Below, piece after piece: positions 4,688 to 34,584 of a DNA stretch of 64,000 nucleotides. Position numbers and translations under genes: made by a program. Source of the stretch: an uncultured Gemmatimonadota bacterium (lineage in GTDB: Bacteria; SM23-81; DAOVCL01). Numbering within the stretch: position 1 is the stretch's first letter; every line of letters begins with the position of its first letter. The notes under the pieces were generated by a model that saw only the letters and a program-made list of their open reading frames with translations, made no database searches and was not told where the DNA came from. The DNA is taken from NCBI GenBank assembly GCA_964626665.1, contig CAZVGK010000003.1, forward strand, positions 85,277 to 149,276, given 5' to 3'.

Positions 4688-5848
4688 TCATACACTTTTG
4701 GACGAGTTCAAATTTTTTATTGCATCCAAAAGTTTTTGGGCTCGATTTTCCCAAAGATATTTCTCTGCCATAGTATATATTTTTTTACTCATTCTTTCTA
4801 GAAAATCATTATGTGTGTAGAGAAAATCGATTTCTTGAGCTAATTCTTTCAGATTATTTGGCTTAAAGAAAAGCCCTGTTTCGTTTTCTTTGATCAGTTC
4901 ACGCATTGTCGGAAGATCTGAAGAGAGGACAGGGATGCTGTAACTATAAAAATCAAATAATTTTAACGGGGAAGTCAGAAATCGATTAAAAAATGTATCC
5001 TGTAACGGGATAACACCAATTTTAATCTTTGTTAGATATCGTTCAAGCTGGGGGCGACGGAGCCAGCCCGTAATTTCTACTTTTTCTTTTCGATAATATT
5101 TTTCGGCCAGTGCGTTATATTCATCGATTTCCTCATTATTTTTTCCACCAAGAATCAAAATTGACGGTTGGGTTTGACTAAGAGCCGCAGATTGCAAAAG
5201 ATTTGCTACTCCCTTATGGGCATTTAAAGAACCGATATAACCTAAATATTTTCTTTCAGATATATCAGAATGTTCAACGTAAGAAAGTCCAGTTCGAGCA
5301 ATAATAAATTTTTGATTAGGAAAATATCTTTCATACAGCATTTTTTGTGCTTTTTGTAAACAGATAACCCCGCTAATATGCGGGATATATCTTTGCTCAT
5401 ATGTGCTCCTTTTTCTTTTCTTTTTGATATTAATATCATCTCGAATGGATAGGTCAGCATAAAAATCGTGGGTTTCAAAAAAAGTCGGTATCCCAAATCT
5501 CTCTTTTAGTTTAGCTAAATAAGGTAGAAAAGTCGTGTTCCGAGAAATAACGGCATCAAGTTCATTATGTGATATTAATTCTTTAAGCTTTCGAAAAACT
5601 TTCTGGAAGAAAAAACAATTTGTGTTGATTATTCTTGTATTCTTTAGTTGATAAATAGTTAAATTATTTGGTTGTAACATATTAAAATATTTTTTCAAAA
5701 TTTCAGAGGAAGAACTTGGGGAATTTCTTTTGATGAAGAAATAACAGTGCCCAGACACCGCTGCCAAACCAATCGCATTTAAGGTAGCAAAAGTTACGCT
5801 CGGAGAATGCGATGGCCATAAACCGGTGTGAACATATGCGATTTTCAT
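4688..5848 (-). CDS. Glycosyltransferase family 4 (GT-B)
   Basis: 386-aa product with a GT4-type C-terminal domain. Low-GC gene (~35%). Confidence 0.6.
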   Translation of the reverse strand: MKIAYVHTGLWPSHSPSVTFATLNAIGLAAVSGHCYFFIKRNSPSSSSEILKKYFNMLQPNNLTIYQLKNTRIINTNCFFFQKVFRKLKELISHNELDAVISRNTTFLPYLAKLKERFGIPTFFETHDFYADLSIRDDINIKKKRKRSTYEQRYIPHISGVICLQKAQKMLYERYFPNQKFIIARTGLSYVEHSDISERKYLGYIGSLNAHKGVANLLQSAALSQTQPSILILGGKNNEEIDEYNALAEKYYRKEKVEITGWLRRPQLERYLTKIKIGVIPLQDTFFNRFLTSPLKLFDFYSYSIPVLSSDLPTMRELIKENETGLFFKPNNLKELAQEIDFLYTHNDFLERMSKKIYTMAEKYLWENRAQKLLDAIKNLNSSKSV

Positions 5849-5860
5849 AGTTCTCCTTCT

Positions 5861-6847
5861 TTAAGAGTTGTATCTTCGTTTTATAAGAGCATAGCCTATT
5901 TCTCGGGATTTGTCATCCCGAGAAAATTTTCTCATCTCTTTTTTAAATTTTTTGACTCCAGGGAATCTCTTAGTAACATATCTATTCATCAGTGAACTTC
6001 TATCTTTTTTGGCCTTCAGTTTATTTCTGTTTGAAGTGTAATCATGATAAATAACGGCTTGTGGGTAATATATCAGAGAATACTTCCCGTATCTGCACCC
6101 AATCCGATAAGATAATTCTAACCCCTCATGCCCAAATAACAGAGGGTTCATTCCGTTCATCTCCATATAAACATTCTTATTAAAGGCAGAATTGCCTTCT
6201 ACATTAATAACCGAAGGAATAGGGATCGGCCCCAGGTCATAATGCTTAACCGACGGGGCAACCCCATCCTCCGTCTTAGGGAAAACTCTGCCCCTTAATC
6301 CAACAATATCATATCTACGGAAAGCTTCGATAATGGAGGAAACATAGGTGCTTGCTGCACGAGCATCATCGTCCAAGAAAGCTACGATCGCACCCTTGGC
6401 GAAATAGACACCTATATTTCTCCCCTCAGATAAGATTAGGTTCTGAGGAGATTTAACATAGAGTATATCTGAAGTCATCAAATTCCTTTCAATAGATTCA
6501 TTTTGGCCATTGTCTACAACAATAATTTCAAATCTGTCTGGAACCAGGGGAAGGAGAGAGTCCAGACAGTTCAATAGAAGCTCATTGCTCTGGTAGGTGA
6601 CGATAACTACGGATAGAATCGGTTGGTTGACTCCTCGGTTATCCCTCTTTGATAAGAGCTCATAGTTAATATGGTCTCGATATAATTTCATAAATCTTTC
6701 TGCTTCGGAGAATTTTTGGGCAGAGAATCGCTGGATTGCCAATCCAAAATTGTGTAAAGCAAATTGTTGAGGCTCTTGAGAGTTCTCTGGTAAGCTCCTG
6801 TTTTTGTTCTTGGTAAAACTTTTCAATTTTGTCCACATATCCATCAT
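5861..6847 (-). CDS. Glycosyltransferase family 2
   Basis: LSVVIVTYQSNELLLNCLDSL...EIIVVDNGQNES is the GT2 N-terminal signature including a DxD-like motif. Confidence 0.65.
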   Translation of the reverse strand: MMDMWTKLKSFTKNKNRSLPENSQEPQQFALHNFGLAIQRFSAQKFSEAERFMKLYRDHINYELLSKRDNRGVNQPILSVVIVTYQSNELLLNCLDSLLPLVPDRFEIIVVDNGQNESIERNLMTSDILYVKSPQNLILSEGRNIGVYFAKGAIVAFLDDDARAASTYVSSIIEAFRRYDIVGLRGRVFPKTEDGVAPSVKHYDLGPIPIPSVINVEGNSAFNKNVYMEMNGMNPLLFGHEGLELSYRIGCRYGKYSLIYYPQAVIYHDYTSNRNKLKAKKDRSSLMNRYVTKRFPGVKKFKKEMRKFSRDDKSREIGYALIKRRYNS

Positions 6848-7092
6848 TACTCACAGGACATTATAGTTTGCCCATGGGCAGCTTTAATTATAATAACCAG
6901 GTCTGTTCCAAAGCGTGAAGGATGGAGCAAGGCGAAACAACTTCACTCCACCAAGACTTCTATTGCACTTTAGTACAGGGTTAGGACCTTTGGCTGAAGC
7001 CCAAAAAAAAAGGTTGATTGCTGTTCTGGCAAAGACATGTAATATGCTTTTCGCTCGCATTAGTAACTCCCCCCACAAAAGTGCTTGTTCCT

Positions 7093-8034
7093 TTAACCCT
7101 CAATCCAGTTCCATGAAGTTAAAAGATGCCTTATGAACTCTTCATGGCGATCTTTCCCAATACCTATCTTTTGCCAAAGGCTATTTTTATCCCTGTAATA
7201 ACCATTTGCAGCCTTATAAATTGGGCTGGACAAATCACCGTAAATGACGCTCATTTCGGTGACAAGCCATTTGCCTTCATAATCCCTCAAAATATCATAC
7301 GACATAACCTCAAAGTTCATCTGTTCATTGGCCCTCGCCCCTAAGTCTAATACTTCAACGGGAATTTCAGAAGTATCAAATAGACCACTCCCACTGGCAA
7401 AGGGACTTTTATCCCTGTTGGGTCTAAAAAATCCATAAATTACTCTATTGCCATAGCAAACGATCCTATAGTCACCCTGATTGTCGCCAAGAAATTCCTG
7501 AAAATAGACATAACCCTTTTGGACTTCATTTTTAAAATAGGTCTTAATCCCCTTATTGAATACCCTTCTTATGTATTTCATAGCTGTTTTTGGATCTTCC
7601 AACAACCCCACATTTGAACTGCCAGCGCCATGCGCACATTTGTATACAAGCGGATATCTCGTTTGCTGGGCAAATGCTACAGCTTCATCTTGATTAAAAA
7701 AAATGTAGGTCTTGGGAGTGGGAATATGATGTCTGGTAAAAAGGTAGTACTGCGCAATTTTGTCATCATAATGCCAGTATGACCTCCAGTCAGGATATGT
7801 AGGAATTTTAAATTCCTGGCCAAAGAAATAGATAAAACGCTTAGCCAGATTCTTGATAACAGGATCATGTTTGGCTCGCCAAATAAAACTGTCAAAATTT
7901 TCTGAAAATAATCTATCCTGCTCGGACTTTCTCCAAATATCAAGGAGGCAAACCTGAAAGCTATAGCGTCTAAGAATTCTCTCATAGATTTGCCAAAATC
8001 TCATTTTATCCTTGACTAATGCGATCTTCCTCAT
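7093..8034 (-). CDS. ATP-grasp domain protein within the polysaccharide locus
   Basis: The central and C-terminal region (YPLVYKCAHGAGSSNVGLL...YVYFQEFL...DYRIVCYGNRVIYGFFR) is consistent with the ATP-grasp fold. Confidence 0.45.
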   Translation of the reverse strand: MRKIALVKDKMRFWQIYERILRRYSFQVCLLDIWRKSEQDRLFSENFDSFIWRAKHDPVIKNLAKRFIYFFGQEFKIPTYPDWRSYWHYDDKIAQYYLFTRHHIPTPKTYIFFNQDEAVAFAQQTRYPLVYKCAHGAGSSNVGLLEDPKTAMKYIRRVFNKGIKTYFKNEVQKGYVYFQEFLGDNQGDYRIVCYGNRVIYGFFRPNRDKSPFASGSGLFDTSEIPVEVLDLGARANEQMNFEVMSYDILRDYEGKWLVTEMSVIYGDLSSPIYKAANGYYRDKNSLWQKIGIGKDRHEEFIRHLLTSWNWIEG

Positions 8035-9002
8035 TTAACATATCCTTCCCTCTTGAGTTGGAATAATTCCATGGCATATTGGAAGAAATCTGTCCATTGA
8101 TAGATAAGATTATTCCAGTCAAATTCCTTCTCCATCTTTTGGCGAATGGCTCTCCCCATTCCAGGTAGCATATCTCGATTTTCGACAAACTCAAGTAACC
8201 TTTCTTTGATAGCTTGATAACTTCTTTCCACAACAATTCCATTTATCCCCTGCTCTATTAATTCAGGGATAATGCCTACATCTGTTGAAATCACAGGTAT
8301 ACCACAGGCAGCAGCTTCAAGCACAGGGCGAGGGGTTCCCTCACTGCGGGAAGCACAGATATACAGGTCCAAGGAATTATAAAATTTCCGCATTTTATTA
8401 TTATCTCTGACAAAATCATCCTCTTTACATTGCACCCTTAACTCAATTTCTGGAATTTCATTGCAAACAGGCTTGATGAATTCAAAAAAACCTCTCTTTC
8501 CAGGATGGTTGGTTAGACTTCCTGTCCACCCTACTACCAGTTTGTCACGGTTTCTTTGGCTTCTTTCTTCAGGATAAAAGGCATCTAGGTCACAAGTATA
8601 CTTGGTATGAATAATCGGCAGATATCGCCCAAATATGTACCATAATTTTTTGCAGTGCGTATTAACAAGAAGAGCCTTCTTTAATTTACGAATAATTTTT
8701 GCTGGCGGTTTTGCATTATATCCAGGGGGCTGAGTTCTCCTGTCGTCCCAACGATGAAAGGAGCGAATCCCAGTTGTGATTTTATCAGTACAAATACCGC
8801 TTTTCAGCAAGGGGAAGAATTCACCAATGTACATAGGGTACAATAAATCATAATTATCATAGTTTTTTTTCCATTCTTTTATGAATTCCCGGAAATAAAG
8901 GATGTCAAATTGAATGTTAGATCTGTTGTATTTAATTAAATCTCGAGCATTCTTGTCTAATGCCCAATGAGGGATATCCGGTATGAGTAAAACCTTCTTC
9001 AT
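8031..9002 (-). CDS. Glycosyltransferase (GT1/GT4-like GT-B)
   Basis: C-terminal LVVGWTGSL...RSEGTPRPVLEAAACGIPVISTDVGIIPELI is the typical GT4 E-x7-E region. Confidence 0.55.
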   Translation of the reverse strand: MKKVLLIPDIPHWALDKNARDLIKYNRSNIQFDILYFREFIKEWKKNYDNYDLLYPMYIGEFFPLLKSGICTDKITTGIRSFHRWDDRRTQPPGYNAKPPAKIIRKLKKALLVNTHCKKLWYIFGRYLPIIHTKYTCDLDAFYPEERSQRNRDKLVVGWTGSLTNHPGKRGFFEFIKPVCNEIPEIELRVQCKEDDFVRDNNKMRKFYNSLDLYICASRSEGTPRPVLEAAACGIPVISTDVGIIPELIEQGINGIVVERSYQAIKERLLEFVENRDMLPGMGRAIRQKMEKEFDWNNLIYQWTDFFQYAMELFQLKREGYVK

Positions 9003-24393: not shown

Positions 24394-25623
24394 TCAATCC
24401 TGTAAATCCCGTCTAAAATTGTTCTTTTCCTTTATCGTAACCGCATCCACCGGACAGACACTTGCACACAACCCACATCCCACGCATTTCTCCTCATCAA
24501 CCTGAGGAAGCCTATCCTGTCCCTCCAACTTCATCGCCTGATGTCCCCCATCGCGGCAGGCAATATAGCAGACATCACACCTGACGCATAACTCTTCATC
24601 AATCTGAGAAACAACGGATTTTCTTTCCAGTTCCCCTTGAGTAACGATATGGGGGAGGCTTTTCCCGATAATTTCTCTGACCTCGTTGCATCCCCTATCT
24701 TCCAGATAAAAGGCTAAGCCATCGATCAAATCCTCAATTATATCATAGCCATAGTGCATAACGGCAGTGGCAAACTGAATAGTCCTTGCTCCGACGAGGA
24801 GAAATTCAACTGCGTCCTTCCAGGTGGTGGGCCCTCCCGTTCCGGTGATGGGAATATCCACATTCTTGGCGATTTCGGCAATCGTCCTCAGGGTAATCGG
24901 TTTTATTGCTGGCCCACTCATTCCACTATAAGAGGATTTCCCCCTTACATTTGGGTAGGGGGTGAATGAATGGAGATCAATTCCCATCAGTGAGGGGATT
25001 GTATTTGAAGCACAAATGGCATCCCCTCCCCCTCTCTTTACCGCCTTAGCCACATCGACAATGTTTGTGACCTGCGGGGTGATCTTGATGACCACAGGGA
25101 CCCTCTCTGCTGCCTCCTTTACCCATCCAGCGACCTTTTCGGTAGCTGGAATCGATTGGGCAAGCATAGCCCCGGGTTCCTCTCCCATACTCCCTTGTGG
25201 ACAGGAAAACGAGCATTCTATCAGGTCAACCCCAGCACTTTCTAATCTCTTCACTAAACCCTGCCAATCCTCTTTCTCTGACCCCATAATCGATGCCCCC
25301 ACAACCTTATGGGGGAATTCCCTTTTCAAAATTTCTACCCCTTTTTCTATCTCATCGATATGATGCTCGGAGATTAAGTCAATGTTTCCTAAGCCGACTA
25401 CCCTCTTCCCCTCAAAGTTTAGGGATGAGATCATTGGATAGACCAGATCAACTGATGTCCCCTCCACAGATGTGGTCTTTAGGATTGCCCCTGCCCAACC
25501 GGCCTCGAACCCCTGTCTAACCATATCCAGATCATCAGTGGGGGGAGCCGCAGCTAAGATGAAAGGGTTCTCGAATTTCACCCCACAGAAATCCACCCCC
25601 AGTTCAATACCGTGATACTTCAT
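24394..25623 (-). CDS. preA: Dihydropyrimidine dehydrogenase PreA-like subunit (DHOD-family TIM barrel plus C-terminal 2x[4Fe-4S])
   Basis: FMN-binding DHO_dh fold with two C-terminal CxxCxxCxxxCP ferredoxin motifs. Confidence 0.7.
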   Translation of the reverse strand: MKYHGIELGVDFCGVKFENPFILAAAPPTDDLDMVRQGFEAGWAGAILKTTSVEGTSVDLVYPMISSLNFEGKRVVGLGNIDLISEHHIDEIEKGVEILKREFPHKVVGASIMGSEKEDWQGLVKRLESAGVDLIECSFSCPQGSMGEEPGAMLAQSIPATEKVAGWVKEAAERVPVVIKITPQVTNIVDVAKAVKRGGGDAICASNTIPSLMGIDLHSFTPYPNVRGKSSYSGMSGPAIKPITLRTIAEIAKNVDIPITGTGGPTTWKDAVEFLLVGARTIQFATAVMHYGYDIIEDLIDGLAFYLEDRGCNEVREIIGKSLPHIVTQGELERKSVVSQIDEELCVRCDVCYIACRDGGHQAMKLEGQDRLPQVDEEKCVGCGLCASVCPVDAVTIKEKNNFRRDLQD

Positions 25624-25865: not shown

Positions 25866-26127
25866 TCCTTGTGCAGGGCTCCGCCCTGACAGGGAACCTT
25901 TTTCTCTGACAGGATGACAGGATAAAAAGCAGTTGTCAGTGATCAGGGCCAGGAACTGATCCCCGTCCGCTGAAACCAGTCTCCTCTCCCTTGACGGGGA
26001 AGGGCTAAGGAGAGGGTGAAATAGTTTTCCCCCCTCACCCTAACCCTCTCCCCCCAGAGGAGAGGGAACCGTAAAAGGCAGGAGTCAGTTGTCAGTAGTC
26101 AGTTATCGGGAACAACTCCCAAACCCA

Positions 26128-26196
26128 TGTGCTGTCAGGGCTCTGCCCTGACAGGGAGATCCCTTTGTGGATGATAACATCCACAAAGAGCGCTGG
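26128..26196. repeat. Double-hairpin repeat (gtcagggctctgccctgac plus ctttgtggatgataacatccacaaag)
   Basis: Near-identical copies at 26128-26196, 26418-26487 and 32697-32764; partial at 25878-25900 and 56355-56385. Confidence 0.7.
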
Positions 26197-26572
26197 GATT
26201 CTGTCTAAGTCTTCTCTGACAGGATAACAGGATAAACGGGATTAAGTGAACCTCCCTGCTCCAGGCTGGGCATCCCAAAACAGTCTCCTCCCCCTTTACG
26301 GGGGAGGACTAAGGAGAGGGTGTAAAAAGTAATCCGTTACCTCCCTCACCCTAATCTTCTCCGCTCAATTTCAGTAATATTTATCCAGTCAATCATGTAA
26401 ATCCTGTCTAAATTCCTGTGCTGTCAGGGCTCTGCCCTGACAGGGGGAGTCCTTTTGTGGATGATAACATCCACAAAGAGCACTGGGTTCTTCGTAAAGA
26501 AAACCTTCTTTTCTTGGCTTCATAACACAGATTTTGATAATCCGTGAAATCAGTGGAATCCGTGGCTCCATC

Positions 26573-29500
26573 CTATTTTATCACCACTAGCTTTTTGACG
26601 GCAGTGAAATTACCTGCCTCGAGTCGATATAGATAAACCCCGCTGGCCAATCCTCTGGCATCCCAACGGACTGACCTGTATCCGACCCCCTGATACTCAT
26701 CTACCAATGTCGCCACCTTCTGCCCCAGCAGGTTGTAAATCTCCAGCCTAACCTGAGCATCCCTGGGCAGAGCATACTTGATCTCCGTAGTGGGATTGAA
26801 GGGGTTGGGGTAGTTTTGGGAAAGGGCAAAAGCTTGTGGAATACCAAATACTCCCCTCTCCCTTACCCCCTCTTTCCCTACCACAAACCACCAGGGGGAA
26901 ACATCGCTGTTTGATCCCCAGGTAGTCAGGCTATCCGTGTCCATAGCTACCACCTTCCAATAGTATCTGGTGTTGTCATCTAAGGGAATGCCCGGTGGAA
27001 TTGTAAAGTGAGTATCGGCAGGAGAAATAACCCTTACTCCCTGGGAGAAGGTGCTATCCGGGCTAAGGTAAATCGTATAGGTGACATAGTCCCATAGGTC
27101 ATTATCCGTGGCCTTATGCCAGAGGAAGGTGGGAGTTGTGGAGACGGAATCTATGCCCAGTTCTGGCTCTATGAGGGAAAAGGGATTGGGAGGCTCCAAG
27201 GCTACATTGGTGAAGAATTTCCAGGTATCCGTAGATGTGGTTAAGCTCTCCTTATCTACGGCTACTACCTTCCAGAAGTATTGAGAGTTGTCGGATAACT
27301 CCTCTGTAGGGATATAGCAGTTGCTGTTCACAACCGTGGGGGTAGCCCCGCTGAAGTTGCTGTCCTGGCCAACCCAGAGGAGATAGTGAATAGAGTCGGC
27401 AATATCGTTGTCTGTGGCATTCTCCCAGTAGAAGATAGGGGTGAGGTCAACCTCCACGCTGTTCTGGGTAGGGGTGACCAGGTTGAAGCTGTTGGGGTCT
27501 TCGTTGGCCGTATTAGTGATAAAGGCCTGATAGCCCTCTTCATCCTCCACCGTAGCACCAGCTAAGTCCTGAGCCACTACCTTCCAGTAGTAGAGCTGAT
27601 TGTCCTCCAAGGGGGTCTTGATCTGATAGACGCTCTCTCCTCCCACCTCAACTTGCACCTGAGAGGGGACGTCCTTTCCATAGAAGAGGGTATAGGTAAC
27701 CACATCTCCAGGATCGGGGTCTATGGAGGTCTCCCAATCCAGTATGGGCTTTAGGGTGGTCACCTCACCTCCATCGGCGGGGGTTAGAAGATGGAAGCTA
27801 CCTGGCGGATTGTTTTCAGAGTTGATAATAAAGGAGCTTGAGGCCATCCATTCCCCATTTTCAAAACCATCATAAGCACTTGCCCTCCACCAGTATTGGT
27901 GATTATCCTCCAAAGGGACATCAATCAGCCAAATTGTGGAATCTATCCCCTCTTCTACTCCAGTGGCCGATGTGACCAGGTTGCTCAATAGGCTATCGCT
28001 GTAAACCTCAAAGCCATAGATAAGACTATCGCCTTCGGCATCTGTGCAATTGGAAATGATCAAAGTCACTATGCTATCGCTGATTACCTCTCCTTCTTTA
28101 GGGCTTAAACCCAGGGGGATGGTGGGAAGACTATTCATCCTGAAGGAAAGGCTGGCCCAACTTGCCCATAAATCATCAGTATTCTTCACCCTGGCTCTCA
28201 AATAGTAGGTTTCCACATCAATCAAGGAATCCCCAGCATAGGTTACAAAGGTGTCCGCACTGCTCACCTCTCCGCTATCCCACATCTCGGCCACCGACCA
28301 GTCATCATCAGTTCCCACCTGAACCTGAAAGCCATCTTGAGGCAAGCTTTGCAGATCAGAATATGACCAGGTGATAAGTGGCTGATGACTAACCAGATGC
28401 TCTATATCTTCCGATCCCCCAATATCCAGATTGGAAATGAAGGGATGCGGATTTTCCCCTACGAGAACGGTAGTAAACTTGGTAGAATCCACATCGGAAG
28501 TAATGGTAATCGTCTCCCCAACCGTAGCCCCAATAGATACCCCTTCCACACTCACGGTATCTATCAAAGCAGTTCCTCTGAATATGCCAGAGACTGAATC
28601 AGTTTCCGTAAGAGCAACACTAATATATTGGGTAGTGAAGTTACTGGTTATAGCAACTGTAGTCTGATCGACGCAGATGGAATCGCTGTCTTGACCTTCA
28701 AGCTGGATATACATCGTCGCCCCAATCCACAAATTGGTGGTTAAGTTGCTGGTATAGGTTTCATCCGACTTCAACACAACCGAATACACTGAGTCCGGCT
28801 CACCAAGAGCTGGAGAGGTAAGAATGGGGCTATACAGGACTTTCCCCAAGGTTATGTCATCGTAATAATCCCAAATCCTGGCGTCGATCGAATCCGTATT
28901 AGTTGTCCCCCACCAATTGTTGCTGGCATCAATATCAGTATCTTGATCGTATCCAAGCTTTACCTCATATTTGCCATTAGTGATCAAATTGTTCTGGTTT
29001 ATATGAGCGTCTGAATTTTGGTCACAGTAAATTCCCCCCCACTCAGGAGAGGCAAAATTCCCAGCTATGAGGTTATTACTAAGGGTCAGAGAGCACCACT
29101 TACAAGAAATTGCAACCCCTAAGTTCGCAGTTATAGTATTGTTCGTAATAGACAAAGTTGAGTGGGAGCAACCGAGGGCAACCCCTGAATTTCCAGTTAT
29201 GATATTCTCGAGAATAGCTAAAGGGGCATATGAACATTGAATGCCGCCACCACGATTTTTGCTTATAGTGTTGCCTGTAATAGGTGATGCTCCATGATAG
29301 TAATAGACACCACCACCAGAGTAAGCAGAGTTCCCGGTTATTATGTTGCCCGTGATAGACGGGGAGGAATACTCACAATACACGCCACCACCTTTACCAT
29401 CACTTGAGGCAAAGTTTCCCGTTATTGTATTGTCAACGATATTGGGGGACGATTCGAAATAGCAAGAGATGCCACCACCATTGCCATGATAGGAAGTTTC

Positions 29501-30232
29501 AGTTATCGTATTTCTATCTATGATGTTCTCAGTGATAATTGGTGACGAATGGTCTTCGCATTCAATACCAGCCCCACCCATTTTGGCGAGATTTCCTTCT
29601 ATAGTGTTACTGGAGATAATCGGAGAAGAATACTGATAACAGCGGATACCACCGCCATAAGCGTAAGTGAGGTTCAAATTATTGTGCTGAATGTAATTTC
29701 CTATAATAATGGGGGACGAATTGTGACAGTTAACGGCGGGGCCAGAACTTTCGGTTATACTACTATGGATTATAAGCGGAGAGGTGTAATCGCAATAGAC
29801 AGCTCCATCGCCGCCGCCATATTCAATTCTGGAGTATTCAATAATACATCCACTTACATAGTTGCCCAGTGAATCCAAAACGGCATCAACGCTGGTATCA
29901 ACAAACTTCATACTTCCCCAATCCCCTGGCGCTGGTGTGGCATTGTTAGAAGTAAACAGAATGCTATCCGTTACTGTCCCCCTGGCTATCAATTCACCGC
30001 CAATGTTTAGAGATAGGCTATCGTTGAATTTCACCGTTACCCCAGGCTCAATGGTTAGGGTTGCTCTTTCAGCCACCTCCACTGTTCCCACCACAATATA
30101 TGGACTACCAGCCACCGTCCAGATTGTATTAGAGTTGATACCACCGCTAACCTCCGTATCGGCAATGGCCAATTGGACTCCAAAGCTGAGCAAAAACACC
30201 ATTGCCACCAAACTTACTTCAATCTTTCTCAT
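26573..30232 (-). CDS. Giant T9SS cargo protein: signal peptide, parallel beta-helix (PbH1) repeats, several FN3-like domains, C-terminal sorting domain
   Basis: MRKIEVSLVAMVFLLSFGVQLAIA signal; ..ITGN.. beta-helix repeats; recurring YYWKVVA.D FN3 motifs. The C-terminus NYPNPFNPTTEIKYALP...VRWDARGLASGVYLYRL is a T9SS CTD. Confidence 0.8.
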   Translation of the reverse strand: MRKIEVSLVAMVFLLSFGVQLAIADTEVSGGINSNTIWTVAGSPYIVVGTVEVAERATLTIEPGVTVKFNDSLSLNIGGELIARGTVTDSILFTSNNATPAPGDWGSMKFVDTSVDAVLDSLGNYVSGCIIEYSRIEYGGGDGAVYCDYTSPLIIHSSITESSGPAVNCHNSSPIIIGNYIQHNNLNLTYAYGGGIRCYQYSSPIISSNTIEGNLAKMGGAGIECEDHSSPIITENIIDRNTITETSYHGNGGGISCYFESSPNIVDNTITGNFASSDGKGGGVYCEYSSPSITGNIITGNSAYSGGGVYYYHGASPITGNTISKNRGGGIQCSYAPLAILENIITGNSGVALGCSHSTLSITNNTITANLGVAISCKWCSLTLSNNLIAGNFASPEWGGIYCDQNSDAHINQNNLITNGKYEVKLGYDQDTDIDASNNWWGTTNTDSIDARIWDYYDDITLGKVLYSPILTSPALGEPDSVYSVVLKSDETYTSNLTTNLWIGATMYIQLEGQDSDSICVDQTTVAITSNFTTQYISVALTETDSVSGIFRGTALIDTVSVEGVSIGATVGETITITSDVDSTKFTTVLVGENPHPFISNLDIGGSEDIEHLVSHQPLITWSYSDLQSLPQDGFQVQVGTDDDWSVAEMWDSGEVSSADTFVTYAGDSLIDVETYYLRARVKNTDDLWASWASLSFRMNSLPTIPLGLSPKEGEVISDSIVTLIISNCTDAEGDSLIYGFEVYSDSLLSNLVTSATGVEEGIDSTIWLIDVPLEDNHQYWWRASAYDGFENGEWMASSSFIINSENNPPGSFHLLTPADGGEVTTLKPILDWETSIDPDPGDVVTYTLFYGKDVPSQVQVEVGGESVYQIKTPLEDNQLYYWKVVAQDLAGATVEDEEGYQAFITNTANEDPNSFNLVTPTQNSVEVDLTPIFYWENATDNDIADSIHYLLWVGQDSNFSGATPTVVNSNCYIPTEELSDNSQYFWKVVAVDKESLTTSTDTWKFFTNVALEPPNPFSLIEPELGIDSVSTTPTFLWHKATDNDLWDYVTYTIYLSPDSTFSQGVRVISPADTHFTIPPGIPLDDNTRYYWKVVAMDTDSLTTWGSNSDVSPWWFVVGKEGVRERGVFGIPQAFALSQNYPNPFNPTTEIKYALPRDAQVRLEIYNLLGQKVATLVDEYQGVGYRSVRWDARGLASGVYLYRLEAGNFTAVKKLVVIK

Positions 30233-30332
30233 CTTACTCCTCTCCTTTCTTGGTTTTTCAGGGATTCTGCATTTTATTTGTCTTCTACTTGCTCCTATAT
30301 TTCTAACTTTTAACAGCAAGCCGATGTGGTTT

Positions 30333-31157
30333 TCATATAACGAAAAAACTCGCCTGTGTTGCGATATCTTTGATTAATGTCTTGGCTTTCACTCTACGAT
30401 GGGTAACAATAAATTCAAACATTTCAAAAAGGTCCTCTGTTATCTGTATAAGTCTTTCATTCGATGCGTAATTATGAGGTTGTCCATGTTTAAAAAGGTA
30501 TGTTCGCCCTCGGCAGGTCACTTTAAGATCCGATTCGTCTCTGGCAAAGTATACTCCATTATTATGTATGCAATTTCTAATAGCTGATAACATTTTAAGA
30601 GCTTCCCGAAAAATATGAGGATCAGGTAAGCTTAAATGCTGAAAAAGACTTAGCCAGACTCTGCTGAACTCCTTATTCGCTTTATTACCAGGATCAATTG
30701 CTCTTAATATCGAACGCATTGCAGACTCTACTACGCTGGAAAGCGAGAAGATAAATCCGCTCCGTATATACACTTCGAATTGTTTCCCTACTATACAAGC
30801 GTCTGATTTAGAAGCGGGAGACATAATTTTTTGTACCCAATTTATGTCTAATGCATAATGAGCAGCATAATACAGTGCAAGATCACACGATCTTATGAGA
30901 TTACAGAGCGCCCAAAATAAACGAATCCGGATATCCTGATTAGCATCCCAGGAATAGTTTTGTAGAAGTCTCTTGCTTTGATTTTCGATGGTGACCCGTA
31001 AAGCCTCAAAATCTTTCATGCATTTAAGAAGGTTTGTCGGCGTTGGCATGATCACAACGGTATTTCGGCTCCCTAATCCAGATATTGACGGGAAATTTGA
31101 GGAGGAACTTCTATTTTCATCTCCCTCTGTACCGGTTTTGAAATTGTCATTTCTCAT
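30333..31157 (-). CDS. Uncharacterised protein, translationally coupled partner of the NERD-like nuclease
   Basis: 274 aa with no confident domain. Low GC. A 1-nt gap to the upstream gene implies coupling. Has an AIRNCIHNNG (R-x3-H) motif, which is not the canonical HEPN Rx4-6H. Confidence 0.5.
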   Translation of the reverse strand: MRNDNFKTGTEGDENRSSSSNFPSISGLGSRNTVVIMPTPTNLLKCMKDFEALRVTIENQSKRLLQNYSWDANQDIRIRLFWALCNLIRSCDLALYYAAHYALDINWVQKIMSPASKSDACIVGKQFEVYIRSGFIFSLSSVVESAMRSILRAIDPGNKANKEFSRVWLSLFQHLSLPDPHIFREALKMLSAIRNCIHNNGVYFARDESDLKVTCRGRTYLFKHGQPHNYASNERLIQITEDLFEMFEFIVTHRRVKAKTLIKDIATQASFFVI

Positions 31158-31158
31158 T

Positions 31159-31980
31159 TTACTTTTCCACTCCCAAAATTATTGGGTTAGAATAGTCTAT
31201 TTCAATAGCTAAGCTTCGTAAGTATTCAATTAGCATACCTCGCTTACCTTCAGATCTTAGCCTGTCTTTAAAACTTTGATCGCTATGTCCTAAGATGATT
31301 TCTAAATAATCAATTAGAGTGGCATAGAAAACCAAAAAAGCAATATCATATTGTGATCTGTCCGCTTTCTTGAGAGAATAATATATATGCTCTGGAGACT
31401 TTCGTAGTAGTCTACTGCTTGAACCACTTTCAATTCCGAAGATAATGCTAAATTGCTTATTTCCGATACAATGGATGCCATCTAAGGCATATCCATTCTT
31501 TTCTGGTGGACATTGACGGATATACTTTTGCACAGTTTTTTCCAAAACTGAGCCGAAACAAAATAAATCACATTTACAAAGATTAGCTGGAGGAGAACTC
31601 GATGTATTGCCCACCATTTCTTTTATAGTTTTCATGCTATCGAGTGTCGAAAAAAATTCCTTTTTATTGAGCTTAGTTTTGACTTCAATTGCATATATTG
31701 CTGATTCTGGCCTAACAACAACAATGTCACCAAATTGAAACAGAGGAGCATAGCGAGATGCCTCATGAATGAGAATATCTATTTGAGGACTGACTGTATT
31801 TTTGTCAACATAAACAAACCCAGACGATACTGCGAAATGAGTAGGAACATAGTCTCTTAGAAAGTTACTAAGAAGCCTTTCTGCCCAAAGTCCTTTCGTG
31901 CCAGGATGTGTGATGAAGCTTTTAATCTGGTTTAACTGACTATTGAAGCTTTTGTCTACTTCTGCAAAATAGTCTTTCAT
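31159..31980 (-). CDS. NERD/Mrr-like PD-(D/E)xK nuclease-fold protein
   Basis: GTKGLWAERLLSNFLRDYVP...VSPQIDILIHE...AIYAIEVKTKL follows the NERD pattern (G..GE....L...y.v...eIDhvvi...gifviEvK), i.e. a D...E.K catalytic-core arrangement. Low GC. Confidence 0.5.
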   Translation of the reverse strand: MKDYFAEVDKSFNSQLNQIKSFITHPGTKGLWAERLLSNFLRDYVPTHFAVSSGFVYVDKNTVSPQIDILIHEASRYAPLFQFGDIVVVRPESAIYAIEVKTKLNKKEFFSTLDSMKTIKEMVGNTSSSPPANLCKCDLFCFGSVLEKTVQKYIRQCPPEKNGYALDGIHCIGNKQFSIIFGIESGSSSRLLRKSPEHIYYSLKKADRSQYDIAFLVFYATLIDYLEIILGHSDQSFKDRLRSEGKRGMLIEYLRSLAIEIDYSNPIILGVEK

Positions 31981-32307
31981 CTCTTACTTGTGTTAATGTT
32001 TGATGCCATAGCGCTGGTAGACAGATAGTGCTATTGCTTGAGAACTTACCAGATAACAAAATATACTGTAAGACCCGCTCCAATTACACACTACTTCTCT
32101 TCTCGGTATGGCTTTTGAGCGGGCGATATGGGGTCATATCTTTATTCTTGACTTTCCAAATTCTAATTACCAACTTAATTCCCTTTGTCAGTTGCCGGGT
32201 AATGCCTTTTAAACAGGGCTTTAGCCCTGTCCCTGCAATTCATTGACTATGTGAAGAGATCTCCTGACCTCGACTTCCATCGGCATCGGAAGATGCCTCC
32301 TACACTC

Positions 32308-32449
32308 TTCTACCCGGCTTTAGCCGGGGTTGAGAGGGCTTTAGCCCGTTTGGAGTGCTGTGATTCCTGTCACAGCTTCCGTCAGCAGGAGTTGACGCAC
32401 TCCATAGAGGGCCTAAAGACCCTTAACCCGCACTGAAGTGCGGTAGAAG
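32308..32449. mobile_element. REPIN/MITE-like element, copy 1
   Basis: Terminal hairpin modules ttctacc-CGGCtttaGCCGG and CGCACTgaAGTGCG-gtagaa (CTAC/GTAG-flanked). Core three-way junction ggagtgc[ctgtga..tcacag][gtcagc..gttgac]gcactcc. Other copies at 34859-34954 (truncated), 49567-49693 (inverted), 59487-59662, 62455-62580 (inverted) and a fragment at 60743-60800. Confidence 0.65.
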
Positions 32450-32903
32450 TCTTCTACTCAAGGAAACCTGAAAAGGTTTGAAAAAAAAGACCTTGCAAAA
32501 TTGTAGGCCAGAGATCAGTTTACAGGGATCGAAGGTCAGGAGAAATCCGTTACACCTATCAACCGACACCTGACGAATGACTGACTACTGATCCCTGACC
32601 CCTGTGAACCGTTAGCTTAATTCAAAAATACCATGAAAAAAGGCCCTGTCAAGGGGAAACTTCCCCCCTGCTACAGGGTCTTTCTGTGTTGTCAGGGCTT
32701 TGCCCTGACAGAGGAAGTCTTCTCGTGGATGATAACATCCACAAAGAGCACTGGGGTTGTTTTTCGACAGGATAACAGGATTTACAGGATTTTAGTTTTA
32801 TCCCGATCATTCTGTCAATCCCGTCTAATAAAAGGGAATTCTCCCTGCTTCTCAGTGCCGTCATGGCAGGACTCCTGAGGGATGGAAAATAGAAATTCCT
32901 GAG

Positions 32904-32927
32904 CCGTCAGATGCCCTCATCTGACGG
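32904..32927. repeat. Palindromic hairpin family cggtcagatgccctcatctgacgg
   Basis: Copies at 32904-32927, 54109-54133, 59749-59768 (truncated) and variant 59785-59809. The 54040-54135 and 59695-59770 copies share a longer ~90-nt context. Confidence 0.7.
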
Positions 32928-33123
32928 GGTTTTAGTAGCAGGAGAGGGATTTTGCCACCCCATGTTAGCGGCACATTTGAATTGGGGGACCTGTCTGCGT
33001 GCCTGCCTGAGCGAGAACGCTCGCAGTCAGGCCTGCCTGTACCAGTCTGCCTGTGCGTCGCACGCAGACAGGCACGGCAGACAGACACCGCACAAGCAGG
33101 GAGGTCTCCAGACCTTTCAAGAG

Positions 33124-33147
33124 CTGTCAGGAGGTAACTCCTGACAG
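33124..33147. repeat. Palindromic hairpin family gtcaggaggtaactcctgac
   Basis: Copies at 18610-18637 (imperfect), 18685-18708, 33124-33147 and 41463-41486. Confidence 0.7.
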
Positions 33148-33185
33148 CACGCTTTTAGTGCCCTTCCCTGACGGCGAGAGGGGAG

Positions 33186-33210
33186 GGTGGCAGAATCGGG
33201 GTTCTGCCAC
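33186..33210. repeat. Palindromic hairpin family ggtggcagaatcggggttctgccacc
   Basis: Copies at 33186-33210, 34815-34840, 54175-54204; variants ccgtcagaaccccgattctgacgg at 56203-56230 and 62785-62808. Confidence 0.7.
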
Positions 33211-33270
33211 ATCGGGCTTAATTTATCCTGTCAATCCAGTAAATCCTGTCCGAAAAGCAGTTGTCAGTAG

Positions 33271-34584
33271 TCAGTTATCGGGAACGACTCCCGACCCCTG
33301 CAAATAGGTAGCTATTGCCTGGGCGGCCTTTTTGCCTTCGGCCACCGATTGGACAACGGTTCTCCCCTTTTTTGACACGATTATATCCCCCCCAGCAAAG
33401 ACTCCTTCCCTTGAGGTCATCATATCCTCATTTACCACCAAGTATCCTTTAGCTGTCTTTAATCCCTTAAACAGCGGACTCTCCTCCGGTGCCTGACCCA
33501 CTGCTTCAATTATTGTATCTCCGATTAAAGTTAAACTGCTCCCCTTGATTTTAACTGCATTCTCCGGAACAAACCTTCCCGGAATTCTCCAATCGATTTT
33601 AATTGCCTCCAGCCCTTTAACCCTTCCATTATTGCCCATAATTCTTAAGGGCATAAACCTGGGATGGATATTTACTCCCTCATTCTCCGCCTGGCTTATC
33701 TCCTCCCTGAAGGCCGGCAGTTCATCTGGCCCTTCCAGACAGACCAGGTCCACATGTTTGACCCCTACCCTTAATGCGGAGCAGGCACAATCAATTGCCA
33801 CACTCCCGCCACCGATCACAATTGCCCTTTCACCCACCCTTACCCTCTGAGGATCCTCATTGACCTCTCTCAGGAATTCTATTGCAGACAGAACCCACTT
33901 TAGCTCCTCACCTGGAATCCGACAGAACAACGGTTTCCCCAATCCCACGCCAATAAATATGGCCTTAAACCCCGAACTGAATAGATTATCCAGGCTACCA
34001 ATCGCTCTATTTCCTTTAACTTTCAGTCCCAATTTTTTGACATAGTCGATTTCTTGCTTGACCATCCTCTTAGAGAGTCGATAGGAGGGGATTCCATAGG
34101 TGAGAACTCCACCTAACTTGTCCCTTTTCTCAAAGATCGTCACCTCAAATCCTTGAACTGCCAGTTCGGCGGCACAGGAGAGACCGGCCGGTCCCGCACC
34201 GATTACGGCCACGTTCACCCTGTTTTTCTTGATCTGAGGAAACGATTTAAACTTCGCTGTATATTCCCTCTCTGCCGCGAATCTTTGCAAGTCCCCAATC
34301 CTAATTGGGGTAGAAAGCTTCGTGGATGAGCATTCCTTCTCGCACAAAGCCTCTACAGGGCAGACAGTTCCGCAGACCCCGGCCAAGATGTTCTTCTCCT
34401 TGATCAGGTTTATGGCTCGCCGGTAATTTTCAAATCTGATTGCCCTGATGAACTTCTTTACATCAATACCTGCTGGACAACCTCGGTTACAAGGGGCATC
34501 CTCGCATAGTAAACACCGAGATGCCTCCAGCACGGCCTGAGCCTCGGTCATCGGCTCTTTCGTTTCCTTAAAGCTTAACTTCAT
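33271..34584 (-). CDS. preT: GltD-like NAD(P)H-dependent oxidoreductase (dihydropyrimidine dehydrogenase PreT-like subunit)
   Basis: N-terminal 2x Cys clusters (CLLCEDAPCNRGCP; CGTVCPVEALCEKEC); FAD/NAD Rossmann motifs VAVIGAGPAGL and IVIGGGSVAIDCA. Confidence 0.7.
   Translation of the reverse strand: MKLSFKETKEPMTEAQAVLEASRCLLCEDAPCNRGCPAGIDVKKFIRAIRFENYRRAINLIKEKNILAGVCGTVCPVEALCEKECSSTKLSTPIRIGDLQRFAAEREYTAKFKSFPQIKKNRVNVAVIGAGPAGLSCAAELAVQGFEVTIFEKRDKLGGVLTYGIPSYRLSKRMVKQEIDYVKKLGLKVKGNRAIGSLDNLFSSGFKAIFIGVGLGKPLFCRIPGEELKWVLSAIEFLREVNEDPQRVRVGERAIVIGGGSVAIDCACSALRVGVKHVDLVCLEGPDELPAFREEISQAENEGVNIHPRFMPLRIMGNNGRVKGLEAIKIDWRIPGRFVPENAVKIKGSSLTLIGDTIIEAVGQAPEESPLFKGLKTAKGYLVVNEDMMTSREGVFAGGDIIVSKKGRTVVQSVAEGKKAAQAIATYLQGSGVVPDN

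What the first reader, a model, noticed from the sequence alone, without database searches (positions are those of the whole stretch)
30333..31980. Low-GC two-gene island: NERD-like PD-(D/E)xK nuclease plus an uncharacterised coupled partner, a candidate novel defence module
Two translationally coupled genes (1-nt gap) are visibly AT-richer than their surroundings. They sit, together with a T9SS cargo gene, inside what looks like an insertion that splits the preT-preA operon. Gene 1 carries a NERD/Mrr-like D...E.K core (QIDILIHE...AIEVK), typical of nuclease effectors in abortive-infection and defence systems. Gene 2 has no recognisable domain; its R-x3-H motif is not a canonical HEPN. A nuclease with an unknown partner on a compositionally foreign islet is the usual signature of an uncharacterised antiphage system or toxin-immunity pair.
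Basis: partly seen in the sequence, partly recalled or inferred. Interest (0 to 1): 0.72.

Follow-up and report, generated by a model that had tools for sequence, protein, structure and literature searches.

The report
Two solo nuclease genes, not a pair
The AT-rich islet is real, but it most likely holds two separate one-gene nuclease modules of the kind bacteria use against phages: a NucC/Damona-like DNA cutter, and a member of a large, so far unnamed HEPN-like (RNA-cutting) family, rather than one new two-gene system.

Summary
Two same-strand ORFs (31159-31980 and 30333-31157, minus strand) are much AT-richer than their neighbours and lie between preT and preA.

Gene 1 is not NERD. It is a DUF6602 PD-(D/E)xK nuclease with an intact D68/E99/K101 triad. 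Only its N-terminal ~120 residues match NucC, the CBASS/type III CRISPR DNase. The same domain makes up the single-gene defence system Damona.

Gene 2 belongs to a large family with no Pfam, NCBIfam, PADLOC or PHROGs model (845 representatives). An AlphaFold model (pLDDT 89) gives a HEPN-like fold. It carries Ex3R in helix 2 and an invariant R-N-x-x-H-N-N-G at the end of helix 3, so every HEPN hallmark is met except the spacing (3 instead of 4-6).

The pairing is not conserved:
- Each family almost always occurs alone, with no fixed neighbour.
- In a sister lineage gene 2 was replaced, leaving a 13-codon remnant, while gene 1 stayed intact.

Both genes are under purifying selection. Their synonymous divergence is about 4-fold lower than that of flanking preT, which points to lateral exchange.

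A defence role is inferred, not shown. The "1-nt coupling" depends on an uncertain gene 2 start codon.

Verdict: two stacked solo nuclease modules. Interest is moderate, mainly for the new HEPN-like family.

The parts
31159..31980 (-). Gene 1, 273 aa: a DUF6602-family PD-(D/E)xK nuclease. The N-terminal nuclease core is NucC/Damona-like. The C-terminal domain (residues ~123-273) is specific to this subfamily.
   Evidence: ORF. Pfam DUF6602 E 4.8e-24, residues 18-122. PADLOC PD_DExK 3.7e-29 and NucC effector 1.5e-18, N-terminal half only. PDB NucC 6uxf 7e-9, or 4e-13 with a profile, residues ~6-125 only. dN/dS 0.30-0.43.
31615..31929 (-). DUF6602 nuclease core of gene 1 (residues 18-122). Predicted catalytic residues are D68 (31777-31779), E99 (31684-31686) and K101 (31678-31680). 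Y77 aligns with the cA3-stacking Tyr81 of E. coli NucC, and H48 aligns with NucC Arg53.
   Evidence: Alignment to E. coli NucC, read against the residues named in bioRxiv 10.1101/694703. D68, E99 and K101 are invariant in A2.
30333..31157 (-). Gene 2, 274 aa as an ORF: member of a large unmodelled HEPN-like family. The conserved core is residues ~40-270. The N-terminal 36-38 residues are lineage-specific and disordered, so an alternative start at M37 (ATG 31047-31049) is possible.
30555..30578 (-). Signature motif R194-N195-C-I-H198-N199-N200-G201 of gene 2, at the end of helix 182-198. This is the predicted HEPN-type active site, with R-x3-H spacing.
   Evidence: Present in 101 of 101 aligned members. 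Position at the end of helix 3 with a polar residue after R, as defined for HEPN in PMC3710099.
30714..30728 (-). E144-x3-R148 of gene 2, in the long helix 117-154. It corresponds to the HEPN helix-2 Ex3[KR] motif.
   Evidence: E144 nearly invariant and R148 invariant. Ex3[KR] in helix 2 described in PMC3710099. Helix assignment from the model.
26573..30319 (-). Beta-helix / Por_Secre_tail (T9SS cargo) gene, immediately downstream of gene 2. The likely start is the ATG at 30232. No terminator-like site lies between it and gene 2. Its GC is normal (0.469), so it is not part of the AT-rich islet.
   Evidence: (Pfam Beta_helix, Por_Secre_tail).
33258..33298 (.). Direct repeat, copy A: the true 3' end of preT (last 9 codons plus 13 nt).
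   Evidence: Repeat family D8, 93% identical to 26086-26126.
26086..26126 (.). Direct repeat, copy B: a duplicated preT 3' end lying about 460 nt upstream of preA. The two copies bracket a 7.1-kb island made of the repeats, gene 1, gene 2 and the T9SS gene.
   Evidence: The reading '...GVVPDN*' is kept in the copy (read from the sequence).
31981..33270 (.). A 1.29-kb non-coding stretch upstream of gene 1, rich in hairpin repeats. Copies of the same units lie at 25870-26490 on the other flank of the island.
   Evidence: No Rfam family and no tRNA.

Best explanation
The 1.65-kb AT-rich islet carries two independent single-gene nuclease modules that were stacked side by side in a variable, laterally exchanged spot between preT and preA.

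Gene 1 is a DUF6602 PD-(D/E)xK enzyme. By homology to the NucC core it is a Mg2+-dependent DNA endonuclease using D68/E99/K101. Its own C-terminal domain stands where NucC has its trimer and cA3-pocket embellishments, and it presumably keeps the enzyme off until some infection cue arrives.

Gene 2 is a member of a large unnamed HEPN-like family. It is predicted to be a metal-independent RNase whose active site is built from R194/N195/H198 (end of helix 3) and E144/R148 (helix 2), probably across a dimer interface as in other HEPN enzymes.

Each gene would act on its own as an abortive-infection or defence-type effector, in the way the single-protein Damona (DUF6602) and AbiD/F/J/U2/V (HEPN) systems do. 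Their adjacency reflects cassette stacking, not a shared mechanism.

Shown here: domain and fold assignments, conserved catalytic-type residues, purifying selection, lateral exchange, absence of conserved pairing, and replacement of gene 2 in a sister lineage.

Inferred: nuclease and RNase activities, the trigger, and the anti-phage role.
For: Gene 1:
- DUF6602 E 4.8e-24; PADLOC PD_DExK 3.7e-29; NucC 1.5e-18.
- NucC structures are the only significant PDB hits, and ID...E.K aligns with NucC D73/E104/K106.
- A DUF6602 single-gene cassette, Damona, is reported as an anti-phage system with the same two HMM matches.
- Solo DUF6602 genes are found on 69 plasmids, one of them next to BrxL, a restriction enzyme and DUF4263.

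Gene 2:
- 845 representatives, 438 of them at E<=1e-10.
- Invariant D75, R77, R148, R194, N195 and H198.
- The RNxxHNNG motif is present in 101/101 members.
- Confident model.
- Ex3R, R-polar and motif position match the HEPN definition.
- 3 of 101 members hit the KEN/HEPN family Ribonuc_2-5A, best E 1.1e-4.
- Family genes have lower GC than their flanks in 26 of 27 loci.
- Neighbours include integrases, type I/IIG/IV restriction systems, Vsr, AbiH, PbeA and PDC-S45.
- One homologue sits 9 nt after a tyrosine integrase.

Independence of the two genes:
- The gene 2 family has no conserved neighbour, and a DUF6602 gene lies within 10 kb in only 1 of 35 loci.
- Relatives of gene 1 are solo, and none in the 28 metagenome loci is next to a gene 2-family gene.
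- In L013/L014, DNA similarity to the window stops 27 nt into gene 2, and the first 13 codons survive as a remnant. Unrelated AT-rich ORFs (227, 53 and 221 aa) follow, while gene 1 stays intact.

Lateral exchange: dS is 0.25 for gene 1 against 0.92 for adjacent preT in the same pair of lineages.
Against: - No experiment supports any activity or any phage phenotype.
- The pair is kept, tightly spaced, in two lineages about 85% identical in protein (window and L001), so a local functional link cannot be excluded.
- The R-H spacing of 3 lies outside the defined range of 4-6.
- Neighbourhoods of both families are mixed with housekeeping genes, and I made no formal enrichment test.
- Neither family was found in phage or IMG/VR collections, so mobility routes are unclear.
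Confidence: 0.55

Rival explanations
1. The two genes form one functional two-component module. Examples would be a toxin-antitoxin or sensor-effector pair, or a DNase plus RNase that need each other, co-translated from one mRNA.
For: - Same strand, with a 1-nt ORF gap in the window and a 2-nt gap in L001.
- Same AT-rich composition.
- The two genes are co-inherited in two lineages, with similar dS (0.20 and 0.23) and similar dN/dS.
- HEPN-REase combinations are a known theme in conflict systems (PMC3710099).
Against: - Pairing is seen only in these near-identical lineages. There is no adjacency in 35 gene 2-family loci or in the relatives of gene 1 found in 28 metagenome loci.
- Sister lineage L013/L014 lost gene 2 yet keeps an intact gene 1 that is still under selection. 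That rules out gene 2 being an essential antitoxin for gene 1.
- The coupling itself is uncertain, because gene 2's first 36 codons look unconstrained.
Confidence: 0.2
2. Gene 1 is a true NucC-type effector. It would be switched on in trans by a cyclic oligoadenylate made by a CBASS cyclase or type III CRISPR Cas10 encoded elsewhere in the genome, and gene 2 would be unrelated cargo.
For: - The best PADLOC hits are the Cas-associated PD_DExK model and NucC.
- NucC structures are the only PDB relatives.
- Y77 aligns with the adenine-stacking Tyr81 of E. coli NucC.
Against: - Only residues ~4-125 align with NucC. The region holding the gate loop (His136/Tyr141) and Thr226/Val227 has no detectable counterpart.
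- NucC Arg53 is His48 here.
- No CD-NTase or Cas10 was found among 38 other ORFs of the 64-kb window or among the listed neighbours of relatives.
- Relatives are typically solo genes.
Confidence: 0.1
3. The genes are not defence genes. They could be remnants or cargo of a mobile element (for example addiction or maintenance functions), or accessory nucleases with a cellular role such as repair or RNA turnover.
For: - The island is bracketed by a 41-nt duplicate of the preT 3' end and by shared repeat units.
- Many neighbours of both families are housekeeping genes.
- There is no direct defence evidence.
Against: - The distribution is patchy and there is no conserved synteny.
- The genes are AT-rich relative to their hosts.
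- Protein evolution is fast compared with preT.
- The nearest characterised relatives are defence effectors.
- There is no integrase or transposase in the island.
Confidence: 0.12

Closest known systems
NucC (CD-NTase-associated / type III CRISPR-associated cA3-activated DNA endonuclease; PDB 6P7O, 6UXF, 7ZGV)
   Same: Gene 1 shares the DUF6602 restriction-endonuclease-like core over its residues ~4-125. It has the ID...E.K catalytic motif (D68/E99/K101, equivalent to NucC D73/E104/K106) and a Tyr at the position of NucC Tyr81.
   Different: The C-terminal half (residues ~123-273) is not detectably similar. NucC Arg53 is His here. The gate-loop and Thr226/Val227 ligand contacts cannot be found. 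There is no cyclase or CRISPR locus nearby.
Damona (single-gene DUF6602 anti-phage cassette of the Vibrio cholerae chromosomal integron; bioRxiv 10.1101/2024.07.02.601686)
   Same: It is a stand-alone protein whose only recognisable domain is DUF6602, and it is also matched by the Cas PD_DExK and CBASS small-endonuclease profiles. That is the same signature as gene 1.
   Different: I had no Damona sequence, so direct similarity was not tested. The hosts differ (Vibrio/Acinetobacter against an uncultured T9SS-bearing bacterium). Gene 1's subfamily has its own conserved C-terminal domain.
Single-protein HEPN abortive-infection proteins and minimal HEPN toxins (AbiD/AbiF/AbiJ/AbiU2/AbiV; HepT/DUF86, e.g. 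SO_3166, PDB 5YEP)
   Same: Gene 2 has a predicted four-helix HEPN-like core, with Ex3R in helix 2, R followed by Asn, and His at the end of helix 3. It also has an insert between helices 2 and 3, it occurs stand-alone, it is AT-rich and it sits in patchy accessory contexts.
   Different: The R-H spacing is 3, not 4-6. There is an invariant extended motif RNxxHNNG, an extra N-terminal helical hairpin and a beta-hairpin insert after the motif. There is no MNT antitoxin partner. No Pfam/NCBIfam/PADLOC/PHROGs model matches the family.
NERD (PF08378) / Mrr-type PD-(D/E)xK nucleases
   Same: They share the general PD-(D/E)xK fold class and a D...E.K motif.
   Different: NERD scores only 14.8 bits (E 0.042), below its 22.1-bit threshold and over 43 residues, against 84.7 bits for DUF6602.

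Membership tests
DUF6602 (PF20247) PD-(D/E)xK nucleases | Match to the Pfam model above the gathering score | tested here: met
   84.7 bits against a cut-off of 27; E 4.8e-24; profile positions 2-104 of 104.
DUF6602 (PF20247) PD-(D/E)xK nucleases | Intact D...E.K catalytic triad | tested here: met
   D68, E99 and K101 are invariant in five relatives and align to NucC D73/E104/K106.
NucC (cA3-activated endonuclease) | Full-length similarity, including the trimer and pocket embellishments (gate loop with His136/Tyr141; Thr226/Val227) | tested here: not met
   Sequence and profile alignments to all five NucC PDB sequences stop at query residue ~102-125. PADLOC NucC models match only their first ~130 of 243 positions.
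NucC (cA3-activated endonuclease) | cA3-contacting residues Arg53 and Tyr81 | tested here: inconclusive
   Tyr81 corresponds to Y77, conserved as Y or F. Arg53 corresponds to H48, which is R in two of five relatives.
NucC (cA3-activated endonuclease) | Genomic association with a CD-NTase or a type III CRISPR-Cas locus | tested here: not met
   No such hit among 38 other ORFs of the window or among the top-listed Pfam families of the neighbours of relatives. The rest of the genome was not visible.
NucC (cA3-activated endonuclease) | Homotrimer that hexamerises on cA3 binding | not testable with these tools
   Needs SEC-MALS, a structure, or a multimer prediction.
Damona (single-gene defence) | Stand-alone DUF6602 protein that protects against phage | tested here: inconclusive
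   Domain signature is the same. There was no sequence to compare and no phenotype.
NERD (PF08378) | Match to the Pfam model above the gathering score | tested here: not met
   14.8 bits against a cut-off of 22.1; E 0.042; no stretch passes on its own.
HEPN superfamily | [quoted passage not shown] | tested here: met
HEPN superfamily | Rx4-6H motif at the end of helix 3, with a polar residue (N/D/H) after R | tested here: not met
   R194-N195-x-x-H198 sits at the end of helix 182-198 and R, N and H are invariant, but the spacing is 3 in 101/101 members. Position and polar residue are met; the spacing is not.
HEPN superfamily | Upstream conserved acidic residue in helix 2, typically Ex3[KR] | tested here: met
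   E144 (over 90% conserved) and R148 (invariant), four residues apart, in helix 117-154.
HEPN superfamily | Sequence-profile match to a known HEPN family | tested here: inconclusive
   Gene 2 itself has no match. 3 of 101 members hit Ribonuc_2-5A (KEN), best E 1.1e-4. The profile against PDB finds none. HHpred against Pfam/PDB profiles was not available.
HEPN superfamily | Metal-independent RNase activity leaving a 2',3'-cyclic phosphate | not testable with these tools
   Needs biochemistry.
HEPN-MNT toxin-antitoxin | Adjacent minimal nucleotidyltransferase antitoxin | tested here: not met
   No conserved neighbour family across 32 loci. In the window the neighbours are gene 1 and a T9SS gene.
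   No adjacency at all, and 1 of 35 within 10 kb. None of the gene 1 relatives in 28 metagenome loci has one. The pair is seen only in the window lineage and in L001.

The most novel reading that the evidence does not exclude
Gene 2 would define a new, widespread HEPN-like family with a contracted active-site motif (R-N-x-x-H-N-N-G, spacing 3). It is found from Bacteroidota to Nitrososphaera archaea and would work as a stand-alone abortive-infection RNase. In this lineage it may additionally have been captured behind a DUF6602 DNase to give a coupled DNase+RNase module.
Probability: 0.3. Interest if true: 0.6.

Novelty: new variant of a known kind. Interest (0 to 1): 0.42.

Why it matters
If gene 2's family is an active HEPN-type RNase, it adds a sizeable family to the catalogue of single-gene immune or toxin effectors. 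The family has at least 845 clusters at 50% identity, spans bacteria and archaea, and has no model in Pfam, NCBIfam, PADLOC or PHROGs. It would also show that the HEPN catalytic motif tolerates a 3-residue spacer, which current motif-based screens (Rx4-6H) would miss.

Gene 1 extends the little-studied solo DUF6602 nucleases (Damona-like) into uncultured T9SS-bearing bacteria. That raises the question of what replaces cA3 as the switch when the NucC core is joined to a different C-terminal domain.

The locus is also a tidy natural example of cassette turnover. One gene was swapped and its neighbour retained, and synonymous divergence is about 4-fold lower than in the flanking core gene.

None of this is surprising in kind. 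The value is a concrete, testable family and two small proteins that are easy to express.

Tried and rejected
- A single-sequence AlphaFold run of gene 2 gave pLDDT 39 and was useless. It cost one of the two structure jobs, so gene 1's C-terminal domain could not be modelled.
- Foldseek against PDB and against BFVD gave nothing below E 0.1. The afdb50 library was not available.
- The gene 2 profile against PDB sequences returned only chance hits such as Prospero and RPB9.
- No match for any of 101 family members in PADLOC, PHROGs or NCBIfam.
- I asked whether the cassettes that follow gene 1 homologues in other lineages (227 aa in L013, 145 aa in L018) are hidden relatives of gene 2. hhalign probabilities were 0.5% or less, so this was rejected.
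- I considered a CRISPR or cyclase context for gene 1 and rejected it for this window.
- Phage and IMG/VR searches were negative for both proteins, and the plasmid search was negative for gene 2.
- Rfam and tRNA scans found nothing that could serve as an integration target.
- TRF found no clean tandem array in the flanks.
- The sigma-70 promoter and terminator scan was uninformative: 12 sites against 6.5 expected, none well placed.
- Source names for cluster members gave only 'hypothetical protein'.
- I considered the NERD assignment and rejected it.
Full report
**1. Observation**

Two ORFs lie on the minus strand exactly where stated: gene 1 at 31159..31980 (273 aa) and gene 2 at 30333..31157 (274 aa). 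Their GC is 0.358 and 0.387 (GC3 0.288 and 0.338). The other 42 long ORFs of the window average 0.477 +/- 0.044 (GC3 0.525 +/- 0.077), so both genes are more than 2 sd low.

They sit between preT (33271-34584) and preA (24394-25623). Also in that gap are a 1219-aa beta-helix/Por_Secre_tail gene of normal GC and about 2.2 kb of repeat-rich non-coding DNA. The wider context is a purine/pyrimidine catabolism cluster: xanthine dehydrogenase subunits, adenine deaminase, preT/preA and a dihydropyrimidinase-like amidohydrolase.

Both ORFs are real genes. Against relatives 83-88% identical in protein, dN/dS is 0.30-0.43 for gene 1 and 0.33 for gene 2.

One caveat concerns the "1-nt gap". The first 36 codons of gene 2 show dN 0.095 against dS 0.111 (10 differences, so low power). 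They are disordered in the model and absent from all other family members, which start at about residue 35-45. The true start may be M37, which would remove the translational coupling.

**2. Gene 1**

- The NERD label is not supported: 14.8 bits, below its cut-off.
- The protein is a DUF6602 member (E 4.8e-24). PADLOC's Cas-associated PD_DExK model (3.7e-29) and its NucC effector models (1.5e-18, 6.9e-14) all match residues 1-122 only.
- The only significant PDB relatives are NucC structures. Alignment stops at residue ~102-125 even with a five-sequence profile.
- Read against the NucC paper (bioRxiv 10.1101/694703), D68/E99/K101 correspond to the Mg2+-binding and catalytic D73/E104/K106, and Y77 corresponds to the adenine-stacking Tyr81. 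Arg53 is His48 here, and the gate loop and the Thr226/Val227 contacts have no detectable counterpart.
- The C-terminal half is conserved within the small subfamily.
- No CD-NTase or Cas10 is present among 38 other ORFs of the window.
- A stand-alone DUF6602 cassette, Damona, has been reported as a single-gene anti-phage system with exactly this HMM signature (bioRxiv 10.1101/2024.07.02.601686).
- Solo DUF6602 genes occur on 69 plasmids. In a Bacillus mycoides plasmid one lies beside BrxL, a restriction endonuclease and a DUF4263 gene.

**3. Gene 2**

- No library recognises it, and the word-indexed search found only three relatives.
- An exhaustive profile search found 845 representatives (438 at E<=1e-10), almost all stand-alone proteins of 225-250 aa.
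- In a 101-sequence alignment, D75, R77, R148, R194, N195 and H198 are invariant, and E144, N199, N200 and G201 are nearly so. The motif R-N-x-x-H-N-N-G is present in 101/101 members.
- With this alignment AlphaFold gives pLDDT 89.3 and pTM 0.84.
- The HEPN superfamily definition (PMC3710099) has four features: the R...H motif at the end of helix 3 running into the following loop; a polar N/D/H right after the R; an upstream Ex3[KR] in helix 2; and an insert between helices 2 and 3. Gene 2 shows E144-x3-R148 in helix 117-154, an insert helix at 164-174, and R194-N195-x-x-H198 at the end of helix 182-198. Every hallmark is met except the spacer length, which is 3 rather than 4-6.
- Three members weakly hit the KEN/HEPN family Ribonuc_2-5A, best E 1.1e-4.
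- Foldseek (PDB, BFVD) and the sequence profile against PDB found nothing.
- I therefore call it HEPN-like with a non-canonical motif, not a proven HEPN.

**4. Are the two genes a system?**

The pair occurs in the window's own population (identical contigs in many samples) and in one relative, L001, which is 88% identical in DNA. Elsewhere the two genes are not linked:

- In 35 loci encoding the gene 2 family, the hosts include Gammaproteobacteria, Bacteroidota, Planctomycetota, Chloroflexi, Spirochaetes, Armatimonadetes and Nitrososphaera archaea. There is no conserved neighbour family, and a DUF6602 gene lies within 10 kb only once (L055), 5.5 kb away.
- In 28 metagenome loci with gene 1 relatives, none has a gene 2-family neighbour. 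The DUF6602 gene is typically solo.
- In sister lineage L013/L014 (gene 1 84% identical, same preT-side position, same downstream T9SS gene), DNA similarity to the window ends 27 nt into gene 2. The first 13 codons (MRNDSFKTGYEFT, as in L001) survive as a remnant. They are followed by unrelated AT-rich ORFs of 227, 53 and 221 aa, which are not hidden homologues of gene 2.
- Gene 1 there keeps its catalytic residues and is under purifying selection. Gene 2 is therefore dispensable for carrying gene 1, which excludes gene 2 being an essential antitoxin of gene 1.

**5. Mobility**

- Between the window and L013, dS is 0.25 for gene 1 but 0.92 for the adjacent preT. The islet therefore shares a much more recent ancestor than its flanks, as expected from lateral exchange or recombination among relatives.
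- Gene 2-family genes have lower GC than their flanks in 26 of 27 loci, by 5.6 points on average.
- One homologue sits 9 nt downstream of a tyrosine integrase in a Bacteroidota-type integrative element.
- The +/-2-gene neighbours of the family include three integrases, type I, IIG and IV restriction components, Vsr, AbiH, PbeA, mad2 and PDC-S45. They are mixed with many housekeeping genes. This is suggestive, but I made no formal enrichment test.
- The whole 7.1-kb preT/preA insert is bracketed by a 41-nt, 93%-identical duplicate of the preT 3' end (33258-33298 and 26086-26126) and by copies of multi-hairpin repeat units. It contains no integrase.

**6. Mechanism proposed**

- Gene 1 is a Mg2+-dependent DNA endonuclease of the NucC/restriction-enzyme type. 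It would be held inactive by its own C-terminal domain until an unknown cue arrives.
- Gene 2 is a metal-independent HEPN-type RNase. Its active site would use R194/N195/H198 with E144/R148, probably formed across a homodimer.
- Each would act alone as an abortive-infection-type effector. The domain assignments and conserved residues are shown here. The activities, the triggers and the defence role are inferred.

**7. Verdict**

The interpretation as a novel coupled two-gene defence system is not supported. The NERD call was wrong. The "unknown partner" turns out to be the more interesting half: a large, unmodelled HEPN-like family with a contracted catalytic motif. This is a new variant of a known kind, of moderate interest.

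Noticed in passing
window 25870-26490, 32540-32830 and 33220-33300: Copies of a multi-hairpin repeat unit occur only on the two flanks of the preT/preA-splitting island within this 64-kb window. Copies are spaced about 290-310 nt apart and carry the palindromes CTGTCAGGGCTCTGCCCTGACAG and CTTTGTGGATGATAACATCCACAAAG. Parts of them are 90-98% identical to the relative L013, more than the flanking coding DNA (82%). There is no Rfam match and TRF sees no clean array. Their nature (MITE, REP-like element or recombination site) is unexplained.
   Followed up: partly
window 26086-26126 vs 33258-33298: A 41-nt direct repeat (93% identical) duplicates the last 9 codons of preT plus 13 nt, and the copy keeps the reading ...GVVPDN*. 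It brackets a 7.1-kb insert and looks like an att-type target duplication, yet the insert has no integrase. A weaker third copy lies at 25925-25975.
   Followed up: partly
window 4688-9002 (minus strand): A second low-GC block (GC 0.34-0.39) of four genes: two GT1-family glycosyltransferases, one GT2-family glycosyltransferase and an ATP-grasp (RimK-like) protein. It is probably a variable surface-polysaccharide cluster.
   Followed up: partly
L013 3197-4994 / L014 1254-3051: In the sister lineage, gene 2 is replaced by AT-rich ORFs of 227, 53 and 221 aa (GC 0.33-0.41) with no Pfam match. These may be another unknown cassette occupying the same slot behind the DUF6602 gene.
   Followed up: partly
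L002 5221-8043: In a Bacteroidota-type integrative element, a tyrosine integrase is followed after 9 nt by a gene 2-family protein (234 aa). After another 12 nt comes a 249-aa protein with weak PH_18 (E 6.9e-5) and HEPN_Cthe2314 (E 0.0024) hits, a possible second HEPN-like gene next to the first.
   Followed up: no
L055 127-4281 and 9749-10393 (Pseudoalteromonas citrea): A 702-aa AAA_21/AAA_15 ATPase, a 342-aa ORF and a DUF6602 protein (299 aa, overlapping the 342-aa ORF by 14 nt) look like one operon. It lies 5.5 kb from a gene 2-family gene, so this may be a defence island. It is the only locus where both families are near each other.
   Followed up: no
L018 3426-4841 (and L061/L062): The 39%-identical relative of gene 1 starts 1 nt after a 436-aa fn3/BNR-like lipoprotein gene that follows CsgG. 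It is itself followed by a 145-aa ORF containing an 'NGTKH' stretch. That ORF has no family hit and no similarity to gene 2.
   Followed up: partly
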